This document shows positions 1 to 53,383 of a stretch of DNA of 53,383 nucleotides, piece after piece. The position numbers and the translations under genes are program-made. The stretch is from Escherichia phage FXie-2024a. Within the stretch, counting starts at the first letter, position 1, and every line of letters starts with the position of its first letter. The DNA is taken from the sequence record PP107930.1. One strand, 5' to 3'. The notes below the pieces were generated by a model. That model was not told where the DNA came from and made no database searches. It saw nothing but the letters and a program-made list of their open reading frames with translations.

Positions 1-127
1 TTATAATATTGCCACAATTCTAGTCTCGTTAATATTGAACAAATTCGAGTCTCCAATATCGTAACAATTCTAGTCTCTTTAATTCTGTAGCAATATTCGA
101 AATAAAAAAAAAATTATAAAAAAAAAA
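1..127. repeat. Left copy of 127-bp terminal direct repeat
   Basis: Bases 1..127 are identical to 53257..53383. Contains internal sub-repeats (CAATTCTAGTCTC twice) and two A-runs. Could be a true terminal redundancy or an assembly overlap. Confidence 0.6.
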
Positions 128-170
128 TTATTTCATAGTCGGATTTCTGTTCGAACAAATTTCGGCGAGA

Positions 171-221
171 TACAGTTGACCGACCGTGAACGAATCTATA
201 TCCAGGTACAGTTGACCGACC
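171..221. repeat. Subterminal direct repeat, TACAGTTGACCGACC x2
   Basis: Perfect 15-bp copies at 171..185 and 207..221, just inside the left terminal repeat. Confidence 0.5.
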
Positions 222-400
222 ATGTACCATTTGGTTTTGAACTTTACGCATTCCTAATATTACTCTTAATATTGTAGCAATATTGGGAATAAGTAATATT
301 TAACTTACTTATTTTATTCTAGCTTAAAGAGAAACGACGCTAACGCATCGAATCTCTTCTCGCATATTAACTGGCAAACGTCAGCCTTCACCATATCCAA

Positions 401-1510
401 TCATAATTCAAATCCACCTAGAGCATCGGTATCAACTTCGGAATCAATCTGCCCGACAAGGTACGAACTAATCTCTGTTTCTTGTGGAGCAACTTGTACA
501 GCATCCGAATTCAACCATGCGTTAATCCAAGGAATCGGGTTAGTTGCACCTTTGAATGGAGCATCCAATCCAACAGCTTGCATACGAATATTCGTGATGT
601 ATTCCACATATCCAGACAAAATTTGCTTGTTTAAGCCAATCATTGAGCCATCTTTGAACAAATAATCAGCCCATTCTTTCTCTTGTTGGGCCACATTTTC
701 GAACATTTCTTGGCACTCTTGACGGCATTCTTTGGCAATTTCTGCCATTTCTGGGTCATCAACGCCGCTTGCAAGAAGGTTCAGCATGTGCTGAGTTCCA
801 GTCAAATGGAGTGCTTCATCACGAGCAATTAAGCGGATAATCTTGGCATTTCCTTCCATCAACTTACGTTCAGCGAAGGCAAATGAGCAAGCAAAGCTGA
901 CATAGAAGCGAATTGCTTCCAGTGCATTGATGGACATGAGGCATAAATATAGCTTCTTCTTAAGCTCATGCAGACTAACTCCGTTGTTGCCTTCTCCGTA
1001 GAGATGCCACAAGGAAGATAGTTCCTGAAGCTCGTCATAATATTGTGAGATGCCAATTGCACGAGAACGAATATGCTCATTCTCTACAATTTCATCAAAG
1101 ATGGCGCTTGGGTCTGTAACAATATTACGAATAATATGAGTGTAAGAACGGGAGTGAATTGTCTCTGAGAAGGACCAAGTTTCAATCCAAGTTTCCAGTT
1201 CAGGAATGCTCACAATTGGCAGCAAAACTGTAGTTGGTCCACGTCCCTGAATGGAATCAAGTAAGATTTGGTATCGTAAATTACTGGTGAAGATGTGTTT
1301 CTCACACTCAGGCAGACCAGCATAGTCAATTCGGTCCTGGCTAACATCAACCTCTTCAGGTCGCCAAAAGAATGATAACTGCTTCTCGATTAACTTCTCG
1401 AATATGCTGTACTTCTGTTGGTCATATCGAGCAACGTTAACGTTCTGACCAAAGAACATTGGTTCTAATAGTTGGTTATTCTTGGTTTGTGAAAAGGTAG
1501 TGTAAGCCAT
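401..1510 (-). CDS. nrdB: Ribonucleotide reductase class Ia beta (R2) subunit
   Basis: 369 aa, near full-length resemblance to E. coli NrdB as recalled from memory ([11 protein letters not shown]..., ferritin-like diiron core, C-terminal NrdA-binding tail). Confidence 0.9.
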
Positions 1511-23803: not shown

Positions 23804-25849
23804 TTACATCCATGCCGAGTAGTTGGCACTTGGGCCGGAGAATTCGATTGCAACCATATCTGAGACGTTATCGACGCAATCGTCGTGCCCAGTACCGCTA
23901 CCCAAAGAAGTGAATCCAAGTATTTCACGTCTAACGTGGTCGATGTGTTCATGACCAGCAGGGAAGAATATTCTCTTTTGTGAGAAATATGGGATTGCGT
24001 TAAGGAATCGAGTTACCTTGTCGTTACCATTTACACCATCACGGGGTAGAGGTAAGACTCGGACACTCCCATCTCTAATAAATTGTTGGTTCAAGAATTG
24101 TCCAGCAGACTTATCTTCCATGTACAATGCACGAGGAATACAGCCTACACACTTCAAGTCCAACTTGTTGCATTTGTTCCAGAAGTCGATGATAGCAGTC
24201 TTGAGTTCTGGAGTTTCAAACTTACCAAGCATGATATCTAAACAATAAACATCTCGCTCTTTAGTCACGCCCCAATGCTTCAGGACCGAATAATCAGAAT
24301 AAGATTTGGCAGTTGATGCCGTATCCGCTGTGATAAAACTTCTGACTATGCGACTTCTGTCGAAAGCATCCGGTTCATACTCTTGCCACCAATCTTCTTT
24401 AACGAGGCCGTGGCCTTGTGCAGATGGGTCGCCAGCATACTGTGAATTGTATGTGTATGGGTTGGACTCTTTCATTGCCTCCAGAGAATCTAAACTCTTA
24501 CGTGAAGGCCACAATGCAGACTTCTCTTCCTTCCTATTCAAATCATACAGAATCGGGATAGCATGAGTGTAGTTCTGCTTCTTAATTAACTTGTCATACC
24601 ACTGAGCACTCCCAACTCCTTTCTCGATAATGGCTGGGATGTTGAGATAGTGGTACTTATCAGACGAGCCACCACGAAGTATATATCCAACTAAATCTTG
24701 GTCATGCACCCTCTGCATAATGATAACCATTGGTGTACGAGCACACTTAATTTGATTACCACGAGAGTCGGTTATGCAACCATCATTCGCAAGACGGGAC
24801 ATAAAGGTGTTATCGAATCGGTCGTTAATCTCCGCTCGAACTGTGTCTGAATATGCATCTTTAGGCTTGATTACGTCATCGACCACGAAGCAGCCGGAAT
24901 AGTTTGCAACCAACAGGCCAGCACCTTTACCAGTTAGTTTACCACCAGTAGGAACAGCGTGCATTACACCAGCTTTGGTCGTACCCCAACGCTCAAGAGA
25001 ACGTTTGTTCGGGTCTATTCTCACCTTCGGGAATATGCGTTGGAACAGTGGGTCCATCATTACTGCACGGATATAACCACTTGATTCAAGAACAACGTCT
25101 TCTGCATACGAGGTGATAATGTTATGGCTTGATTCATTGTGGCAAAATGAATACAAGGGCAATGCAATACTCATAAGCTGGGTCTTAGAGTGTCGTGGAG
25201 GAATGGTCACTATTAAGCGGTCAATCTCACCATCAACAACCTTCTGACCAACACTGAATATTACATCGTGAAAGTCTTGTGCCTGGAATGGGAATCCCAT
25301 TTGAATATGGAACTGCCATTTACCAAAGGCTTCGAAACTTTTCATCAAGATTTTGCGAACACGTTCTGCAACCTTGGCAGGGATTACAGTTGGGTCCACG
25401 TTGTGTGGGTCATGCAGAATCTTGTCTACAAGTTCTTCGGTGTTATCGTGTTCAGAGTTTGGCTCCTCTAATGTGGAACCTGCAACACGGTCAGTAACAC
25501 CTGCTTGAATACCTTTCTTCAACTCGTCTGCATAGGCAGTTGAGTCTTTCTTATCGCCAGAGCGAAGACGCTCAAGTTGTGCTTTGAAAACGGAACGAAG
25601 AACCGCATCGTTTTCCAGACCCTGGCCTTCTAACTCTGCTTGAATTTGTTCTTCATAGCTGTCAACTATTGCAGTATTTTCTGAAATATATCGACGGAGC
25701 AATGGCAAAGATAGAATACAGAATCTCTCTCTTGAGACTTTTAAAACGTCACCATAGTTCTTAACGAGATAGCTGGCAACTGTATCGTTAAACTCTGGTC
25801 CGAGGTCATCAGTCTTTGACATTGATTCGTTCTCTTTGGTTTTAATCAC
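23804..25849 (-). CDS. Terminase large subunit
   Basis: 681 aa; deviant Walker A-like PPRHSKT; C-terminal Asp-rich nuclease-like region (GHDDCVDNVSD); upstream of portal. Confidence 0.6.
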   Translation of the reverse strand: MIKTKENESMSKTDDLGPEFNDTVASYLVKNYGDVLKVSRERFCILSLPLLRRYISENTAIVDSYEEQIQAELEGQGLENDAVLRSVFKAQLERLRSGDKKDSTAYADELKKGIQAGVTDRVAGSTLEEPNSEHDNTEELVDKILHDPHNVDPTVIPAKVAERVRKILMKSFEAFGKWQFHIQMGFPFQAQDFHDVIFSVGQKVVDGEIDRLIVTIPPRHSKTQLMSIALPLYSFCHNESSHNIITSYAEDVVLESSGYIRAVMMDPLFQRIFPKVRIDPNKRSLERWGTTKAGVMHAVPTGGKLTGKGAGLLVANYSGCFVVDDVIKPKDAYSDTVRAEINDRFDNTFMSRLANDGCITDSRGNQIKCARTPMVIIMQRVHDQDLVGYILRGGSSDKYHYLNIPAIIEKGVGSAQWYDKLIKKQNYTHAIPILYDLNRKEEKSALWPSRKSLDSLEAMKESNPYTYNSQYAGDPSAQGHGLVKEDWWQEYEPDAFDRSRIVRSFITADTASTAKSYSDYSVLKHWGVTKERDVYCLDIMLGKFETPELKTAIIDFWNKCNKLDLKCVGCIPRALYMEDKSAGQFLNQQFIRDGSVRVLPLPRDGVNGNDKVTRFLNAIPYFSQKRIFFPAGHEHIDHVRREILGFTSLGSGTGHDDCVDNVSDMVAIEFSGPSANYSAWM

Positions 25850-36806: not shown

Positions 36807-37417
36807 AGAAGACTACCTTATATGTGATTGAGGTTGCGGCCTTTACGCGGCCAACGTGCCATTAATGCTGGCAAGACAGAGCTAACGTTCTCAAGCACTT
36901 TGGCGAGGATGTTCTCGGACACTGTTTTAGGAAGTGACCACCTGAACGTCTCGTGTTCATTACGTTGACTTTACGGAGTCATCGGAGCTTCGTTCTCAAG
37001 CACGCCGTTTTCTTCTTTGGCCGGAGTCAAGCCGCAAGCCTTTGTCTCGGTGGACTAACCTTCTCACACTAACGATGTGTAGCGGGACGTTCCAATCCTA
37101 GGAGGCAGCAATTTTAATTGTTATGCCCAGAGCAACGTGCGGGCTTTCACCGACTTCCTCGAAAGGTTGGGTTCACGTTATTTATAGTCGCGCATCCCAC
37201 TCGACTGCCAAATGTTGTTGATGCGATGGCGAGCATTTGTTTCACTGTACTTGTTTATAGATGCAACAGGCTCATCTTGTTCACTCACTGTCGGGTAAGT
37301 TTAGAACACTTTTGTGCCCACGTTTCATTGTGGACTAAAATCTGTGTTTTGGTTTCGCGTGACAAAACTTTTACTTCTGCAACATCCAAATAGATTGGTT
37401 GTGCAATCAAGCAGTAG

Positions 37418-37924: not shown

Positions 37925-38305
37925 CAGAATAAGGTGGGGGGTTTTGGTAACGCAGGTTTTCCCAAACTGCGAGGCTTGTAGCAAGACAGTCGCATTACTT
38001 TGCGAATGCCAGCAGGATTGATGGTCCGACCGTCTTTGCTTAGGCAACCTGATTTAATCTACCTTTGTAGATACCATCGGTTAGAGTAGTTTATTTCCAT
38101 GCTCAGGGCAATTCACTTATGCGAATTAGGTTACGCAGTGCAGCTTCGAAGTCACTGCCACAGGTTTGAGGTTTCCTGTGTGGAGGGAAATCCAGAGGAG
38201 CACTTCCTCAAGGAGTTACGTTTCATATTGGCATAGCTTCTCACACTAAACCAATTGAAGACATTCCAGTGTGCTCGTCCGTCCTCTAGAAATATCCAAC
38301 TGCAT

Positions 38306-38465
38306 AATTAAGTTTGTACTCTGTCACATCCCCACGCGCACTGAGGGACTTAAGCCTGCATTGCATCGCAGAATACAAATTGATAATTAAGTTTGTACTC
38401 TGTCACACTGCATCGCCAAGATGTGCAGCCTAAGGTTATCGGTTCATCGCAGAATACAAATTAAT
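38306..38465 (-). repeat. Tandem pair of ~80-bp imperfect palindromic elements
   Basis: Two adjacent units with conserved ends (AAGTTTGTACTCTGTCACA ... CATCGCAGAATACAAATT) that are inverted repeats of each other, enclosing different ~45-nt cores. Confidence 0.5.
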
Positions 38466-49383: not shown

Positions 49384-49632
49384 TTAGAATCCCTCGTTAT
49401 ACCCAGCAGTGTTACGAAGAGTCACTTCAACATCTTCGTCATCAGGAATTAATTCGACTTCAATATTGACAACAATATTGTCACTAAAAGTACATGCCTT
49501 ACTTGAATCAAAGAACTTTACAGCATTGTACTTATCTGACTCATTTACTTTAATCCACTTCACAGAACGAACAGTGAAGATTTGACCATCTTGCAGGTCT
49601 TTGAAACAAGCAGCTTTAATCACAGTATCCAT
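49384..49632 (-). CDS. First early protein after the iteron region
   Basis: About 82 aa from MDTVIK (ATG 49630..49632) with GGAG ribosome-binding site; preceded by a long hairpin leader. Confidence 0.4.
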   Translation of the reverse strand: MDTVIKAACFKDLQDGQIFTVRSVKWIKVNESDKYNAVKFFDSSKACTFSDNIVVNIEVELIPDDEDVEVTLRNTAGYNEGF

Positions 49633-49656
49633 TTTATTCTCCAAAGTTAAAGGAAA

Positions 49657-49722
49657 ACTCCCTACAGAACGATTGTGGAGGTCTTGTCTTACCTCAATCC
49701 ACCTTAAAGTTGTAGGGAGTAT
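49657..49722 (-). promoter_or_regulatory. Structured leader hairpin before the first early gene
   Basis: 10-bp inverted repeat ACTCCCTACA / TGTAGGGAGT enclosing an inner stem, followed by a U-run, a ribosome-binding site and the ATG. Confidence 0.35.
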
Positions 49723-49779
49723 GTGACACAACAAGTGCCGAAAACTACAATGATTAGCTTGGAGACATAATCTCTCTAA

Positions 49780-50650
49780 AATCTGTCACAGAATTTACAG
49801 AGATTTGGTCTTATTCACATGCAACTAATGATAAATGAACATGCTTAATTGCAACTAATTCATCTGCCAAATAGACGAATTTTGTCACAATCAAACATGC
49901 ATCATTAATTATAGGTTTACACCTATCTTGGAATGTATTTGGCACATCAAGAAGTGGCGCAATAGGTACGGAAAACCGACCATGTACAGCATAATAAAAC
50001 CAATTAAATAAAGGGTTTTATCCCAATATTGTCACAATATTTACATGCGATGATAAAGCCTTCGCTTGGCTGGAAGCCAGTATTCATGCGGGTTGCAAGA
50101 ATATTGGGTCATTGCTGATACAGCTATTACATGCGAAATTGGCACAAATACTGTTACAAAATTAACATGCCAGATTGGCAGACGATTGTATCTTCGAGGT
50201 GATTAGTCCTCTAACAATTCTGCCACATTCCAACATGCCAATTTGTAGCAATATTTACATGCCATACTGCGACGCAATTGTCACAATATTTGTTGCTCAA
50301 AATCGGGGCGGCTTCTGCGTGCAAACGAGAGGCTTAGTCCGACTTCTTCTCTTCTTTCGATTTCTGATTGAAAGAAAGAAGCATGTCCAAAAGTTCCAAT
50401 ATTACCAAAGTTATCTCCCGGCTTGTGGGTGGGCCTTTATAATAGGAGATGGAGCAATATTGTCGCAATTGAACATGCCATAGGTGAAGTACAAGTTTCG
50501 GATAGATATTCCTACTCTGTGTCATGGTTGCTGGAACTATAGGTGGCCTACCTAGGGAGTTCAATGATTGCCACATCATTACAACACTGTAACTCAAAGC
50601 TGACATGCTGAATGTTTCTAGAATGATTCAACATTACATGCGGAATATTT
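49780..50650. repeat. Iteron-like repeat cluster (candidate origin or promoter array)
   Basis: ORF-free ~0.9 kb with about 10 to 12 copies of a 18-19 bp motif near TTGTCACAATATTTACATGC (examples 49882..49900, 50029..50048, 50151..50170, 50221..50238, 50243..50262, 50460..50478). Confidence 0.55.
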
Positions 50651-50721
50651 CTCCGTATTCTTTTACTTCACATCCAACTAATGTAAGAGTTGTGTAACGA
50701 TATTGAAGACAGCTCTTAAAT

Positions 50722-50752
50722 TAATTGAAACAAGAAAAGGGAGCCGAAGCTC
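50722..50752 (-). terminator. Intrinsic terminator after the RNA polymerase operon
   Basis: Minus strand reads GGGAGCTTCGGCTCCC followed by TTTTCTTGTTTC, just after the 66-aa ORF stop at 50760. Confidence 0.5.
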
Positions 50753-50759
50753 CCAAGTA

Positions 50760-50960
50760 TCAGAACGGTATCTCTGTATCAAAGTACCCAGAATTGTGTA
50801 AGAATGAGTGCAATAATACATGCGATTCTTGCTTATATTCTGCTAACAATTCTAAGAAGTCTTTAGTCTCCTCCACTGTAGGACGAGATAAGTTGCTCAT
50901 GTCACAGGTGTGATGAGGATTGAAACAGTTTTCGATTTGATTGATTTGTTGAATGTTCAT
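50760..50960 (-). CDS. Hypothetical small protein
   Basis: 66 aa ORF immediately downstream of the RNA polymerase gene. Confidence 0.4.
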   Translation of the reverse strand: MNIQQINQIENCFNPHHTCDMSNLSRPTVEETKDFLELLAEYKQESHVLLHSFLHNSGYFDTEIPF

Positions 50961-51009
50961 TATAAGTCTCCAAGTTTGTGGTCATCCTTGACCCAATTAG
51001 TGTCACTGA

Positions 51010-52950
51010 TTATTGACAGAAGTAGTAAGCGTGTTCGCTCATCAGAAGCTCTTCAGTTACGATGTTCTCGTGATACATCTGAATGCCGCCAAGTTGCTTA
51101 GACAGATTCTCGAATTGATTGTTGGTTACAAAGATTTCAACATATGCTGCACGAATAACTTCCATCATACGTGGAGCATCAGCTAAGCAGCAACGGAAAC
51201 AATCATGGATTGAAGTGAAGCCACGAAGACCAGCTTCTTTAGCTTTAACTGCAACAGTACGAGCAACAAGTGCATCAATACCTTGAATGTAGTTAACAAC
51301 GAAGGTGCGTTTAAATTCTTCCTTAGTTGGATTGGATTCACGAATGGTCCAAGGCTTGTTCTCCTGAATCTGGCCAAAGATAACACGAGTTTGGCTGTCA
51401 ACACGGATGCTGAATGCCTCACAGATTTCACGAGATGGGAAGCAAGGCTTCATTACAACCTGACCATCAGTGTGACGATATGTGATGTACTCTTTGTTGA
51501 GTTCAACACAACGGTTGTATGCAGCATCAGCAGCTTTCTCGATGAACATGTTAATCTTAGCACCCAATGCGTTATGGATTGCTTCTACACACAGTTCAGC
51601 AAATGCCTCAGCTTTCTCCATAGGAATCTGGAGAGATGCAGTCATGTATGCAATGAAGTCAGAAGAACCAGTCAATGCAGCTTTACCACCACCGTATTGA
51701 ATAGCCATATACGGAGTTTTGATAAACTTACGACCAGCTTTCGGATTCAAGAATTCATCCATGATTTCAGGAGATGGTTTCATTGAAGAACGGTCGAGCA
51801 GCTTCAACAGTTCACGAAGACTCAACTGGTATGGGTCAGATGCTTTAGTCTCAGAATCAACCAGACCTGTTGCACGAGCCATTTCCATGTTACCAGCAAT
51901 GAATGCCAGATATTGAGTACCAGAACATTTAGCATCTAAACCAAAGCCTACACGAGAATCGCACTCACCTGTAGTCTCAAACTTGAACCAATCCAGAGCC
52001 AGACGAACATAAGTGAATGGCTTAGAAGGACGTTCAGATTTGTCCATGTTCATCATGCGAGCAAGTGAACCAGCTGGATTTGATGCAACATAAGTTAATC
52101 GCTTAGCAGAAGCCCATTCACCACCAGAAATATCTTCCAGCTCTGCCATGAACATGTTGTATGCAATGGTAGTAGAACCATCTTCGTTAAACTTCTTAAC
52201 GATGTTCTCAACATTGTGAGAATACAAGCAACGAGCAAAGTCAGATGATTGTGGGTTAGGACCAGCACATGCTACATGATACAGACGACCACGGTTATCA
52301 GCAAAGTAGTCAGAGTACAGTGTATCCTGAGTCATCATTGCTACAGCATTGTTCCAAACATGGAGTTCAGTCTGGATTGCTTCTGGCATCTGCAAGCCAC
52401 CATAAGTACGCTGCTCAATCATGGACTGGATGATGCGAACCATCTCAGTCTCCACATGGTACTCAGTATCTTGCAGGAATTCGATTGCAGCTTTCAGAGT
52501 CTTGGATGGCTTAACTTTGCCACCTTTAACGAAAGGCTTGCGACGAGATTCAGTGGTAACACGCTCAGTGAATGGCACTGAGGTATCTTTGGTTGTAACC
52601 AGCTCAACCCATGCATCAGTTTGTTGGAACGACTTATCTTCGTTCATGGTGATGAAGCCAAAGTGTTTAGCCAGACCAATCAGGTTGATAGCTGGGTCAA
52701 CATAGTGCATTGCTTTCAAATCGTTGTTATAACGGTTGGCATCAGCAATAGAAGCAGAAGCCAGTTCAACCATCGAGATGGCAGGTACAACATCGTCACG
52801 AGTGAAAGACGTCATCATCTTGAAGATGGCTAACGCAGCAATAGCACAAGTCTGAGGCTGCATATAGTTCTGTTTCTCTTTGGCACGGTATACCAGAGCA
52901 GTGATAGCAGGAACAACGGATTTGATAGTTTGAGTAGAGATAGTAGTCAT
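51010..52950 (-). CDS. Single-subunit DNA-dependent RNA polymerase, compact form
   Basis: 646 aa from MTTIST (GGAG ribosome-binding site). T7-RNAP-like motifs: DNRGRLY, motif A GLDAKCSG, motif B KTPYMAIQYGGGK, motif C SIHDCF. N-terminal domain much shorter than T7 RNAP. Confidence 0.8.
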   Translation of the reverse strand: MTTISTQTIKSVVPAITALVYRAKEKQNYMQPQTCAIAALAIFKMMTSFTRDDVVPAISMVELASASIADANRYNNDLKAMHYVDPAINLIGLAKHFGFITMNEDKSFQQTDAWVELVTTKDTSVPFTERVTTESRRKPFVKGGKVKPSKTLKAAIEFLQDTEYHVETEMVRIIQSMIEQRTYGGLQMPEAIQTELHVWNNAVAMMTQDTLYSDYFADNRGRLYHVACAGPNPQSSDFARCLYSHNVENIVKKFNEDGSTTIAYNMFMAELEDISGGEWASAKRLTYVASNPAGSLARMMNMDKSERPSKPFTYVRLALDWFKFETTGECDSRVGFGLDAKCSGTQYLAFIAGNMEMARATGLVDSETKASDPYQLSLRELLKLLDRSSMKPSPEIMDEFLNPKAGRKFIKTPYMAIQYGGGKAALTGSSDFIAYMTASLQIPMEKAEAFAELCVEAIHNALGAKINMFIEKAADAAYNRCVELNKEYITYRHTDGQVVMKPCFPSREICEAFSIRVDSQTRVIFGQIQENKPWTIRESNPTKEEFKRTFVVNYIQGIDALVARTVAVKAKEAGLRGFTSIHDCFRCCLADAPRMMEVIRAAYVEIFVTNNQFENLSKQLGGIQMYHENIVTEELLMSEHAYYFCQ

Positions 52951-53006
52951 TTGTAAGTCTCCAAGATTGTGTATGATTTGAATGAAACGGATTATAATAG
53001 CGTAGC

Positions 53007-53024
53007 CATTACACAATTCACGTC
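53007..53024 (-). promoter_or_regulatory. Copy of recurrent 18-bp motif, about 60 nt upstream of the RNA polymerase ATG
   Basis: Plus strand TTCACGTCCAACTAATAT; family consensus TTCACATCCAACTAATGT. Confidence 0.35.
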
Positions 53025-53181
53025 CAACTAATATCACAAACCTGTGCCATTGTTACAACAGCACGGAGACTTTGACCTTGACTCATAAGCGAAGCGCCTA
53101 ACTTGGTGTTGATTGAAAGCCGATAGGCTGTAGGAAAAAGTTGGGGTAGGGACCGTATTTTAAGTCCGATAGGACGTTGGG

Positions 53182-53240
53182 CTTCCCCTCCTCGGAGATA
53201 AAAATTTTAAAATAATAATGTTACAACTTCCCCTCCTCGC
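53182..53240. repeat. Subterminal direct repeat, CTTCCCCTCCTCG x2
   Basis: Perfect 13-bp copies at 53182..53194 and 53228..53240, just inside the right terminal repeat. Confidence 0.5.
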
Positions 53241-53256: not shown

Positions 53257-53383
53257 TTATAATATTGCCACAATTCTAGTCTCGTTAATATTGAACAAAT
53301 TCGAGTCTCCAATATCGTAACAATTCTAGTCTCTTTAATTCTGTAGCAATATTCGAAATAAAAAAAAAATTATAAAAAAAAAA
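53257..53383. repeat. Right copy of 127-bp terminal direct repeat
   Basis: Identical to 1..127; the window ends exactly at the repeat end. Confidence 0.6.

What the first reader, a model, noticed from the sequence alone, without database searches (positions are those of the whole stretch)
1..127. 127-bp terminal repeat flanked by short subterminal direct repeats
Both ends carry the same 127 bp. Just inside each end there is a different short direct repeat (15 bp x2 at 171..221; 13 bp x2 at 53182..53240), reminiscent of the short repeat arrays flanking the T7 terminal repetition. However, 127 bp is exactly the overlap left by a common assembler k-mer setting, so the physical ends need confirming.
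Basis: partly seen in the sequence, partly recalled or inferred. Interest (0 to 1): 0.5.

Follow-up and report, generated by a model that had tools for sequence, protein, structure and literature searches.

The report
Assembler overlap, not a terminal repeat
The identical 127 bases at both ends are almost certainly the overlap an assembler leaves when it opens a circular assembly path, in an ordinary phiEcoM-GJ1-like E. coli phage whose real terminal repeat is probably about 2.8 kb and lies elsewhere.

Summary
The sequence facts hold. Window 1-127 equals 53257-53383 exactly and does not extend by one base. The 15-bp pair (171/207) and the 13-bp pair (53182/53227) are real and non-random. The T7-like interpretation does not hold. 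The window is a Chaseviridae (Carltongylesvirus-like) myophage whose large terminase is 99.3% identical to that of phage Mangalitsa. In this family the virion DNA carries long direct terminal repeats (DTRs) of 2.3-3.2 kb. The DTR boundaries recorded for Mangalitsa, 4HA13 and JL1 map to window 53163-53168 and 50336-50346. The experimentally derived boundaries of PYps23T map to 53022 and 50673. None of these coincides with 53257 or 127/128. With one copy of the 127 bp removed, the junction is collinear and single-copy in more than ten relatives. 127 is a standard top k-mer, and 127-bp SPAdes overlaps are a documented artefact. The overlap also ends exactly on the last A of one of the only two long homopolymers in the genome, which is where a de Bruijn graph would branch. 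The short repeats belong to a conserved, indel-prone intergenic region between nrdB and the RNA polymerase gene. Interest is low.

The parts
1..127 (.). Copy 1 of the 127-bp end overlap. It is the same genomic segment as 53257-53383 and should be counted once.
   Evidence: Exact identity with no extension. Single-copy and collinear in relatives.
53257..53383 (.). Copy 2 of the 127-bp end overlap.
118..127 (+). A10 homopolymer whose last base is the last base of the overlap (the same bases as 53374-53383). A second A10 lies at 104-113. These are the only homopolymers longer than 6 nt in the genome.
   Evidence: The 14-bp x2.1 tandem repeat at 102-131 crosses the boundary. The length of the A-runs varies among relatives.
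4..79 (.). Tandem array of ~25 bp x3 with unit TAATATTGnnACAATTCnAGTCTC (the same bases as 53260-53335). Copy number varies among relatives. One unit is homologous to the sigma70 promoter annotated in phiEcoM-GJ1.
171..221 (.). 15-bp direct repeat pair TACAGTTGACCGACC, 36 bp apart. It is conserved in Carltongylesvirus relatives. BSBP01 lacks one period. The pair lies inside a conserved small minus-strand ORF and encodes VGQLY twice.
53182..53239 (.). 13-bp direct repeat pair CTTCCCCTCCTCG, 45 bp apart, flanking a 45-bp indel polymorphism. Mangalitsa, flopper and BSBP01 have one copy.
53145..53180 (-). Conserved block GGGTAGGGACCGTATTTTAAG|TCCGATAGGACGTTGG. It contains the predicted true left genome end, at 53163 by Mangalitsa and 4HA13 and at 53168 by JL1.
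50336..50346 (-). Predicted inner (right) boundary of the long DTR. AGTCCGA occurs here and at 53163, which are two of only four occurrences on this strand.
50341..53163 (-). Predicted ~2.8-kb direct terminal repeat, collapsed to one copy in the assembly. It contains the RNA polymerase gene.
   Evidence: Homology to DTRs recorded for Mangalitsa (3,234 bp), 4HA13 (3,120 bp) and JL1 (2,995 bp, exact in the record). The ICTV profile supports this.
53017..53035 (-). Phage-RNAP-promoter-like motif GATATTAGTTGGA|CGTGAA. The left DTR boundary published for PYps23T maps to 53022.
50667..50685 (-). Phage promoter motif TACATTAGTTGGA|TGTGAA, equivalent to GJ1 'phage promoter 1'. The right DTR boundary published for PYps23T maps to 50673.
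51010..52950 (-). [quoted passage not shown]
401..1510 (-). nrdB, the last large gene in the canonical orientation. A terminator-like hairpin lies at 350-335 (minus strand).
23804..25849 (-). Large terminase subunit. It is 99.3% identical to Mangalitsa, 96.9% to the PYps3T group and 75.5% to PM1.

Best explanation
The 127-bp terminal repeat is an assembly artefact. The phage is a Chaseviridae myovirus whose virion DNA is linear with a long direct terminal repeat (DTR), predicted here to span about 50341-53163, roughly 2.8 kb. In a short-read de Bruijn assembly the two DTR copies collapse, so the path closes into a circle. An assembler running at k=127 prints that circle as a linear contig whose first and last 127 bases are the same k-mer. 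The circle was opened where a graph vertex survived. That vertex is the k-mer ending on the last A of an A10 run, where reads with A10 and A11 diverge. The physical ends are therefore not at 1, 127 or 53257. The short direct repeats are real features of the conserved, AT-rich, indel-prone intergenic region between the last gene (nrdB) and the first gene (RNA polymerase). That region holds promoter-like tandem units, a small conserved ORF and sequences adjoining the true left terminus. What is shown: the repeat, its single-copy status in relatives, the mapping of relatives' termini, the terminase identity and the homopolymer coincidence. What is inferred: the assembler used, the graph-vertex mechanism and the presence of the long DTR in this particular phage.
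For: (1) The repeat is exactly 127 bp, with perfect identity and no extension. Philipson et al. [quoted passage not shown] (2) Only two homopolymers longer than 6 nt exist in 53,256 bp, and the overlap ends exactly at the end of one of them. Counting two boundaries and four run ends, the chance is about 1.5e-4. A k-mer ending at the last base of a run is where paths of different run length diverge. The run lengths differ among relatives. (3) The SPAdes assembly of Mangalitsa also needed PCR closure across this same intergenic region. (4) With one copy removed, the junction aligns end to end as a single-copy stretch in EcoM1, TH29, BSBP01, MLP1, Bp10, Pel53, flopper and a metagenomic UViG. (5) Termini in relatives are as follows. 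Mangalitsa has a 3,234-bp DTR and 4HA13 a 3,120-bp DTR, both from PhageTerm, and position 1 of both records aligns to window 53163. The JL1 record carries an exact 2,995-bp repeat at both ends, mapping to 53168 and 50341. PYps23T has a 2,339-bp DTR established by restriction, ligation-PCR and sequencing. Myduc has a 3,202-bp DTR. [quoted passage not shown] (6) The large terminase is 99.3% identical to that of Mangalitsa, and the sequence blocks at both DTR boundaries are conserved in the window.
Against: No reads are available, so neither coverage nor read starts could be examined. The source of the window and the assembler used are unknown (searches found nothing). A genuine DTR would also be perfectly identical. 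Published boundaries in the family disagree with each other: the PhageTerm-type boundaries and the PYps23T boundaries differ by 140 bp on one side and about 330 bp on the other. The original phiEcoM-GJ1 paper proposed circular permutation. The long DTR is therefore the least secure step of the explanation.
Confidence: 0.88

Rival explanations
1. The overlap is still an artefact, but the phage packages by a headful mechanism and its DNA is circularly permuted, with no fixed ends, as first proposed for phiEcoM-GJ1.
For: PMC8762354 cites Jamalludeen et al. 2008 as proposing permutation for GJ1 and notes that the terminases resemble those of T1-like headful packagers. Outside the family the large terminase matches Rtp/T1-like terminases at 26-33% identity. 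A circular assembly fits this model equally well.
Against: PYps23T's terminase is 97% identical to GJ1's, yet restriction patterns show extra fragments consistent with a fixed DTR. Fixed termini are recorded for Mangalitsa, 4HA13 and Myduc by PhageTerm, and for JL1 in its record, at homologous conserved positions for the three E. coli phages. ICTV says 'non-permuted'.
Confidence: 0.07
2. The 127 bp is a genuine short T7-type direct terminal repeat of this particular phage, and the flanking short repeats act like the repeat arrays beside the T7 terminal repetition.
For: The copies are perfectly identical. The family has a T7-like RNA polymerase and all genes lie on one strand. Non-random short repeats lie on both sides.
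Against: The length equals a standard k-mer exactly. The right edge falls inside a homopolymer/tandem repeat, and both edges fall in stretches that carry indels among relatives, not conserved cut sites. A terminase 99.3% identical to that of a phage with a 3.2-kb DTR is unlikely to cut at different sites. The conserved terminus block at 53145-53180 is intact.
Confidence: 0.02
3. The overlap is an artefact, but the contig was opened there because a physical genome end, through adapter-bearing terminal reads, created the graph vertex. One true terminus would then lie at 127/128 or 53256/53257.
For: The break lies in the 1.3% of the genome that separates the last gene from the first, close to where relatives have their left end.
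Against: The termini of relatives map 94-99 bp (53163-53168) or 235 bp (53022) from 53257. The homopolymer coincidence explains the exact position without invoking an end. The sequence at 127/128 and 53256/53257 is poorly conserved.
Confidence: 0.03

Closest known systems
k-mer overlap left by de Bruijn assemblers (SPAdes/metaSPAdes at k=127) on circular or circularly closing contigs
   Same: The length is exactly 127, the identity is perfect with no extension, and removing one copy gives a junction collinear with relatives. It is documented as a routine artefact for phage genomes.
   Different: The break point is not arbitrary: it sits exactly at the end of an A10 run. The assembler used is not known.
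Long direct terminal repeats of Chaseviridae (Mangalitsa 3,234 bp; 4HA13 3,120 bp; JL1 2,995 bp; Myduc 3,202 bp; PYps23T 2,339 bp)
   Same: The phage belongs to the same family and has a near-identical terminase. The sequence blocks at both DTR boundaries are conserved in the window, and the RNA polymerase gene lies inside the predicted repeat.
   Different: The window carries only one copy of that region, and its DTR is inferred rather than observed. The predicted length of about 2.8 kb differs from each relative because of indels.
T7 160-bp terminal repetition with adjacent short-repeat arrays (recalled from Dunn and Studier 1983, not checked here)
   Same: A short exact repeat at both ends, short direct repeats nearby, and a T7-like RNA polymerase as an early gene.
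   Different: The repeat here is not physical. This is a myovirus with a different terminase lineage, and the family's real terminal repeat is 15-20 times longer.

Membership tests
Assembler k-mer overlap on a circularly closing contig | Repeat length equals the assembler's k (127 is a standard maximum k) | tested here: met
   The repeat is exactly 127 bp and no other prefix length equals the suffix. The 127-bp SPAdes artefact is documented.
Assembler k-mer overlap on a circularly closing contig | Removing one copy gives a junction that exists as contiguous single-copy DNA | tested here: met
   The junction aligns end to end and is found at one place per record in EcoM1, TH29, BSBP01, MLP1, flopper, Bp10, Pel53 and UViG 3300007747_000002.
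Assembler k-mer overlap on a circularly closing contig | The break point corresponds to a graph vertex or is arbitrary, not to a conserved cut site | tested here: met
   The overlap ends on the last base of one of only two A10 runs in the genome. Both edges lie in stretches that carry indels among relatives. The vertex mechanism itself is inferred.
Assembler k-mer overlap on a circularly closing contig | Reads span the junction at normal depth with no read-start pile-up at the contig ends | not testable with these tools
   No reads are available, and the source contig was not found.
T7-type short direct terminal repeat | Repeat edges are the physical ends of virion DNA | not testable with these tools
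   This needs reads or virion DNA. In relatives with determined ends, the ends map elsewhere.
T7-type short direct terminal repeat | Repeat edges are conserved sequence positions among close relatives | tested here: not met
   The 53256/53257 edge lies in a stretch deleted or replaced in TH29 and Pel53. The 127/128 edge lies in an A-run of variable length.
T7-type short direct terminal repeat | The packaging enzyme belongs to a lineage that makes short DTRs | tested here: not met
   The large terminase is 99.3% identical to that of Mangalitsa (3.2-kb DTR). Outside the family it is nearest to T1/Rtp-like terminases, not Autographiviridae ones.
Chaseviridae genome with long DTR | Membership of the family by sequence and gene order (T7-like RNAP first, nrdB last, all genes on one strand) | tested here: met
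   The window shows 79-93% nucleotide identity to Carltongylesvirus records over both ends. All long ORFs lie on the minus strand.
Chaseviridae genome with long DTR | The sequences at both DTR boundaries of relatives are present and conserved | tested here: met
   The left boundary block at 53145-53180 is nearly invariant, including in 4HA13, which belongs to another genus. The right boundary at 50336-50346 is conserved. AGTCCGA occurs at both.
Chaseviridae genome with long DTR | About 2x read depth across the repeat, with read-start peaks at its edges | not testable with these tools
   No reads are available.

The most novel reading that the evidence does not exclude
The conserved elements at and just outside the true left terminus could together form the concatemer-junction processing signal of Chaseviridae. 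These elements are the 13-bp G-rich pair, the two CCGATAGG mini-hairpins that bracket position 53163, and the AGTCCGA heptamer that recurs at the inner DTR boundary (50336). Under this reading, cleavage or nicking at the same short motif at both DTR boundaries would generate the 2.8-kb repeat. No packaging signal has been defined for this family.
Probability: 0.2. Interest if true: 0.4.

Novelty: not a real feature. Interest (0 to 1): 0.1.

Why it matters
The practical point is to trim one copy of the 127 bp, giving a unit length of 53,256 bp. The contig should not be annotated as having a short DTR, and completeness tools that flag 'DTR' should not be read as evidence about packaging. The virion DNA is predicted to be about 56.1 kb, with a repeat of about 2.8 kb containing the RNA polymerase gene. 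A secondary lead is the shared AGTCCGA/CGGAC motif at both predicted repeat boundaries. Together with the conflict between PhageTerm-type and PCR-derived boundaries in this family, it gives a concrete and cheap test of how Chaseviridae ends are cut.

Tried and rejected
(1) I looked for the source contig to learn which assembler was used. Exact-pattern scans of IMG/VR and JGI metagenome contigs found only Mangalitsa. Exact-protein look-ups for the RNA polymerase and NrdB found nothing. (2) Sigma70 and terminator consensus scans of the junction and of 49.3-50.75 kb were not above shuffled expectation. I therefore do not claim the 25-bp units are promoters, beyond their homology to the promoter annotated in GJ1. 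(3) No tRNA gene is present, so the junction is not an attachment-site or tRNA feature. (4) I considered whether the 15-bp repeats are protein-binding sites or coding sequence. A small ORF with in-frame indels is conserved, but it is too short for a substitution-rate test, so this is left open. (5) I considered that the PYps23T boundaries might be the real ones for the whole family. PYps23T keeps both CGGAC/CGGAG motifs at the homologous positions, so neither set of boundaries can be excluded without reads. (6) No paper on JL1 was found, so how its DTR was determined is unknown.

Full report
OBSERVATION. The first 127 bases of the window are identical to the last 127 (53257-53383). 127 is the only prefix length between 10 and 4999 that equals the suffix, so the repeat stops exactly there, and the 127-mer occurs nowhere else. 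TACAGTTGACCGACC lies at 171-185 and 207-221, and extends to 24 nt at 88% identity. CTTCCCCTCCTCG lies at 53182-53194 and 53227-53239. They are not chance. The genome has nine exact direct repeats of at least 12 bp within 120 bp of each other, against 0.38 expected from block shuffles. Three of the nine fall in the ~700-bp stretch around the junction. Tandem Repeats Finder adds a ~25-bp x3 array at 4-79 and a perfect 14-bp x2.1 repeat (ATAAAAAAAAAATT) at 102-131 that straddles the 127/128 edge.

WHAT THE WINDOW IS. Both ends match phiEcoM-GJ1-like E. coli myophages (Chaseviridae, Cleopatravirinae, Carltongylesvirus) at 79-93% nucleotide identity. Examples are Mangalitsa, SKA49, flopper, ST32 and GJ1. 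All long ORFs lie on the minus strand, so the window is the reverse complement of the conventional orientation. The T7-like RNA polymerase gene (51010-52950, minus strand) is the first gene in that orientation, and nrdB (401-1510, minus strand) is the last large one. The 127 bp lies in the ~700-bp non-coding stretch between them, which is 1.3% of the genome.

THE JUNCTION IS SINGLE-COPY IN RELATIVES. I joined the window's right end to its left end with the 127 bp counted once and searched the phage collection. The 736-bp junction aligns over 92-100% of its length, at one place per record, in relatives whose records happen to be opened elsewhere. These include EcoM1, TH29, BSBP01, TH33, TH28, MLP1, flopper, Ecp_YSF, Bp10, Pel53 and TH24. 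The multiple alignment confirms this. A metagenomic IMG/VR contig is likewise collinear across the junction.

WHERE THE REAL ENDS ARE IN THIS FAMILY. The ICTV profile describes Chaseviridae genomes as linear, terminally redundant and non-permuted, with long terminal repeats of about 3 kbp. Five relatives have recorded repeats:
- Mangalitsa: 3,234-bp DTR from PhageTerm.
- 4HA13: 3,120-bp DTR from PhageTerm.
- Myduc: 3,202-bp DTR.
- JL1: the record carries an exact 2,995-bp repeat at both ends.
- PYps23T: 2,339-bp DTR supported by restriction mapping, ligation-PCR and sequencing, and exact in its record.

Position 1 of both the Mangalitsa and 4HA13 records aligns to window 53163, and the JL1 end aligns to 53168. 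These ends sit in the block GGGTAGGGACCGTATTTTAAG|TCCGATAGGACGTTGG. That block is almost invariant even in 4HA13, which belongs to a different genus, while the flanking sequence diverges. The inner boundaries of the three repeats map to window 50346, 50336 and 50341. The PYps23T boundaries map instead to 53022 and 50673. None of these positions is 53257, 53383 or 127/128. The window's large terminase is 99.3% identical to that of Mangalitsa, 96.9% to the PYps3T group and 75.5% to PM1, so the same packaging chemistry is expected.

WHY EXACTLY THERE, AND WHY 127. [quoted passage not shown] From my own knowledge, not checked here, 127 is the largest k in common SPAdes and metaSPAdes settings. A linear genome of the form repeat-unique-repeat gives a de Bruijn graph that closes into a circle. 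The assembler then prints the loop with its start k-mer repeated at the end. The position of the break is informative. The genome has only two homopolymers longer than 6 nt, A10 at 104-113 and A10 at 118-127, and the overlap ends on the last A of the second. The k-mer that ends on the last base of a run is exactly where paths with A10 and A11 diverge. A surviving vertex there is what would fix the start of the loop. This step is inference. Counting two repeat edges and four run ends, the coincidence has a probability of about 1.5e-4. Two observations are consistent with it. The A-run lengths differ among relatives. The SPAdes assembly of Mangalitsa also had to be closed by PCR, with primers in the RNA polymerase 5' end and just downstream of nrdB, which is across this same region.

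THE SHORT REPEATS. The 13-bp pair brackets a 45-bp indel. Mangalitsa, flopper and BSBP01 carry one copy, while EcoM1, MLP1 and Bp10 carry two. This looks like gain or loss of a unit between direct repeats. The pair lies 19-76 bp outside the predicted left terminus. The ~25-bp units inside the 127 bp vary in number among relatives. One unit corresponds to the sigma70 promoter annotated in phiEcoM-GJ1, TTGACGAGACTAGAATTGTGGCGATATTAT, and it is the only minus-strand consensus hit upstream of the RNA polymerase gene (53288..53259). The scans are not above shuffled expectation, however. The 15-bp pair is conserved in the genus, and BSBP01 lacks exactly one 36-bp period. It lies within a small minus-strand ORF (MVGQLYLDIDSFTVGQLYLAEICSNRNPTMK) that stays open in nine relatives and carries in-frame indels of 36, 18 and 18 nt. 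Overlapping small ORFs are annotated there as hypothetical proteins in Mangalitsa, flopper and PYps23T. I cannot decide between a coding role and a binding-site role for these repeats.

RIVALS. A genuine 127-bp DTR is very unlikely (about 2%). The length equals a standard k, the edges fall in variable low-complexity sequence, the terminase is essentially Mangalitsa's, and the conserved terminus block lies elsewhere. A circularly permuted headful genome (about 7%) was the original proposal for GJ1, and the terminase is distantly T1/Rtp-like. The restriction data for PYps23T and three independent records with fixed ends at the same conserved site argue against it. Under that rival the 127 bp is still an artefact. 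A physical end exactly at the break (about 3%) is not needed, given the homopolymer explanation.

LEADS BEYOND THE FINDING. (a) The plus-strand heptamer AGTCCGA occurs four times in the genome, and two of those are exactly at the two predicted DTR boundaries, 53163 and 50336. A CGGA[CG] core sits at both boundaries in Mangalitsa, JL1 and 4HA13, and is retained at the homologous positions in PYps23T. (b) Two CCGATAGG mini-hairpins, the only two in the genome, bracket the left terminus at 53120 and 53166. (c) The published PYps23T boundaries both fall in the middle of the GJ1-type phage promoter motif ATTAGTTGGA|YGTGAA. This could be biology, or it could be PCR jumping between the two shared motifs. 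It is unresolved. (d) AATATTG/CAATATT is about threefold over-represented. It is concentrated in the junction and in the non-coding stretch 49461-50456 that contains the inner DTR boundary.

VERDICT. It is a k=127 assembly overlap on a collapsed long-DTR genome of an already well-described phage family. One copy should be trimmed, giving a unit genome of 53,256 bp. The predicted virion DNA is about 56.1 kb, with a terminal repeat of about 2.8 kb at roughly 50341-53163. Read mapping would settle this in minutes.

Noticed in passing
window 53163-53169 and 50336-50342 (+ strand AGTCCGA): The same heptamer sits exactly at both predicted boundaries of the long terminal repeat, and it has only four occurrences on this strand genome-wide. 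A CGGA[CG] core is present at both boundaries in Mangalitsa, JL1, 4HA13 and PYps23T. It may be a cleavage or nicking motif.
   Followed up: partly
window 53017-53035 and 50667-50685 (minus strand): The experimentally derived 2,339-bp DTR of Yersinia phage PYps23T begins and ends in the middle of two copies of the GJ1-type phage RNA polymerase promoter motif (ATTAGTTGGA|YGTGAA). These positions are 140 bp and about 330 bp from the PhageTerm-type boundaries of Mangalitsa, 4HA13 and JL1. This is either a real link between promoters and termini or PCR jumping at the shared motif.
   Followed up: partly
window 53118-53129 and 53164-53175: Two small hairpins, AGCC-GATA-GGCT and GTCC-GATA-GGAC, contain the only two CCGATAGG sites in the genome. 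They lie 46 bp apart and bracket the predicted left terminus. Both are conserved across genera.
   Followed up: partly
window 5-284 and 49461-50456: The AATATTG/CAATATT motif (core palindrome CAATATTG) has 33 sites against about 11 expected. It is clustered in the two non-coding regions next to the predicted DTR boundaries, often within larger units of the form GCATGT..AATATTGnnACAATATTG. It could mark early promoters or sites for a DNA-binding protein.
   Followed up: partly
window ~128-222 (minus strand): A small ORF, MVGQLYLDIDSFTVGQLYLAEICSNRNPTMK, is conserved in nine relatives with in-frame indels. Upstream, a 1-nt indel in some relatives changes the N-terminal extension.
   Followed up: partly
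window 53259-53288 (minus strand): The only sigma70-consensus hit upstream of the RNA polymerase gene is the homologue of the promoter annotated in GJ1, and it lies outside the predicted DTR. In virion DNA only the right-hand copy of the polymerase gene would be linked to it.
   Followed up: no
window 38304-38445 and 36886-37003: Further short-range exact direct repeats (25 bp and 18 bp about 80 bp apart, and 13 bp 105 bp apart) lie in a gene-poor stretch between about 36.6 and 38.6 kb. This corresponds to the GJ1 region that holds a tRNA and long non-coding gaps. No tRNA is present in this window.
   Followed up: no
PP952070.1 (L012): A record named Staphylococcus phage Pel53 (host Staphylococcus hyicus) is about 80-88% identical to these E. 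coli Chaseviridae across the matched regions. That is an unlikely host assignment for this family and may reflect contamination or mislabelling.
   Followed up: no
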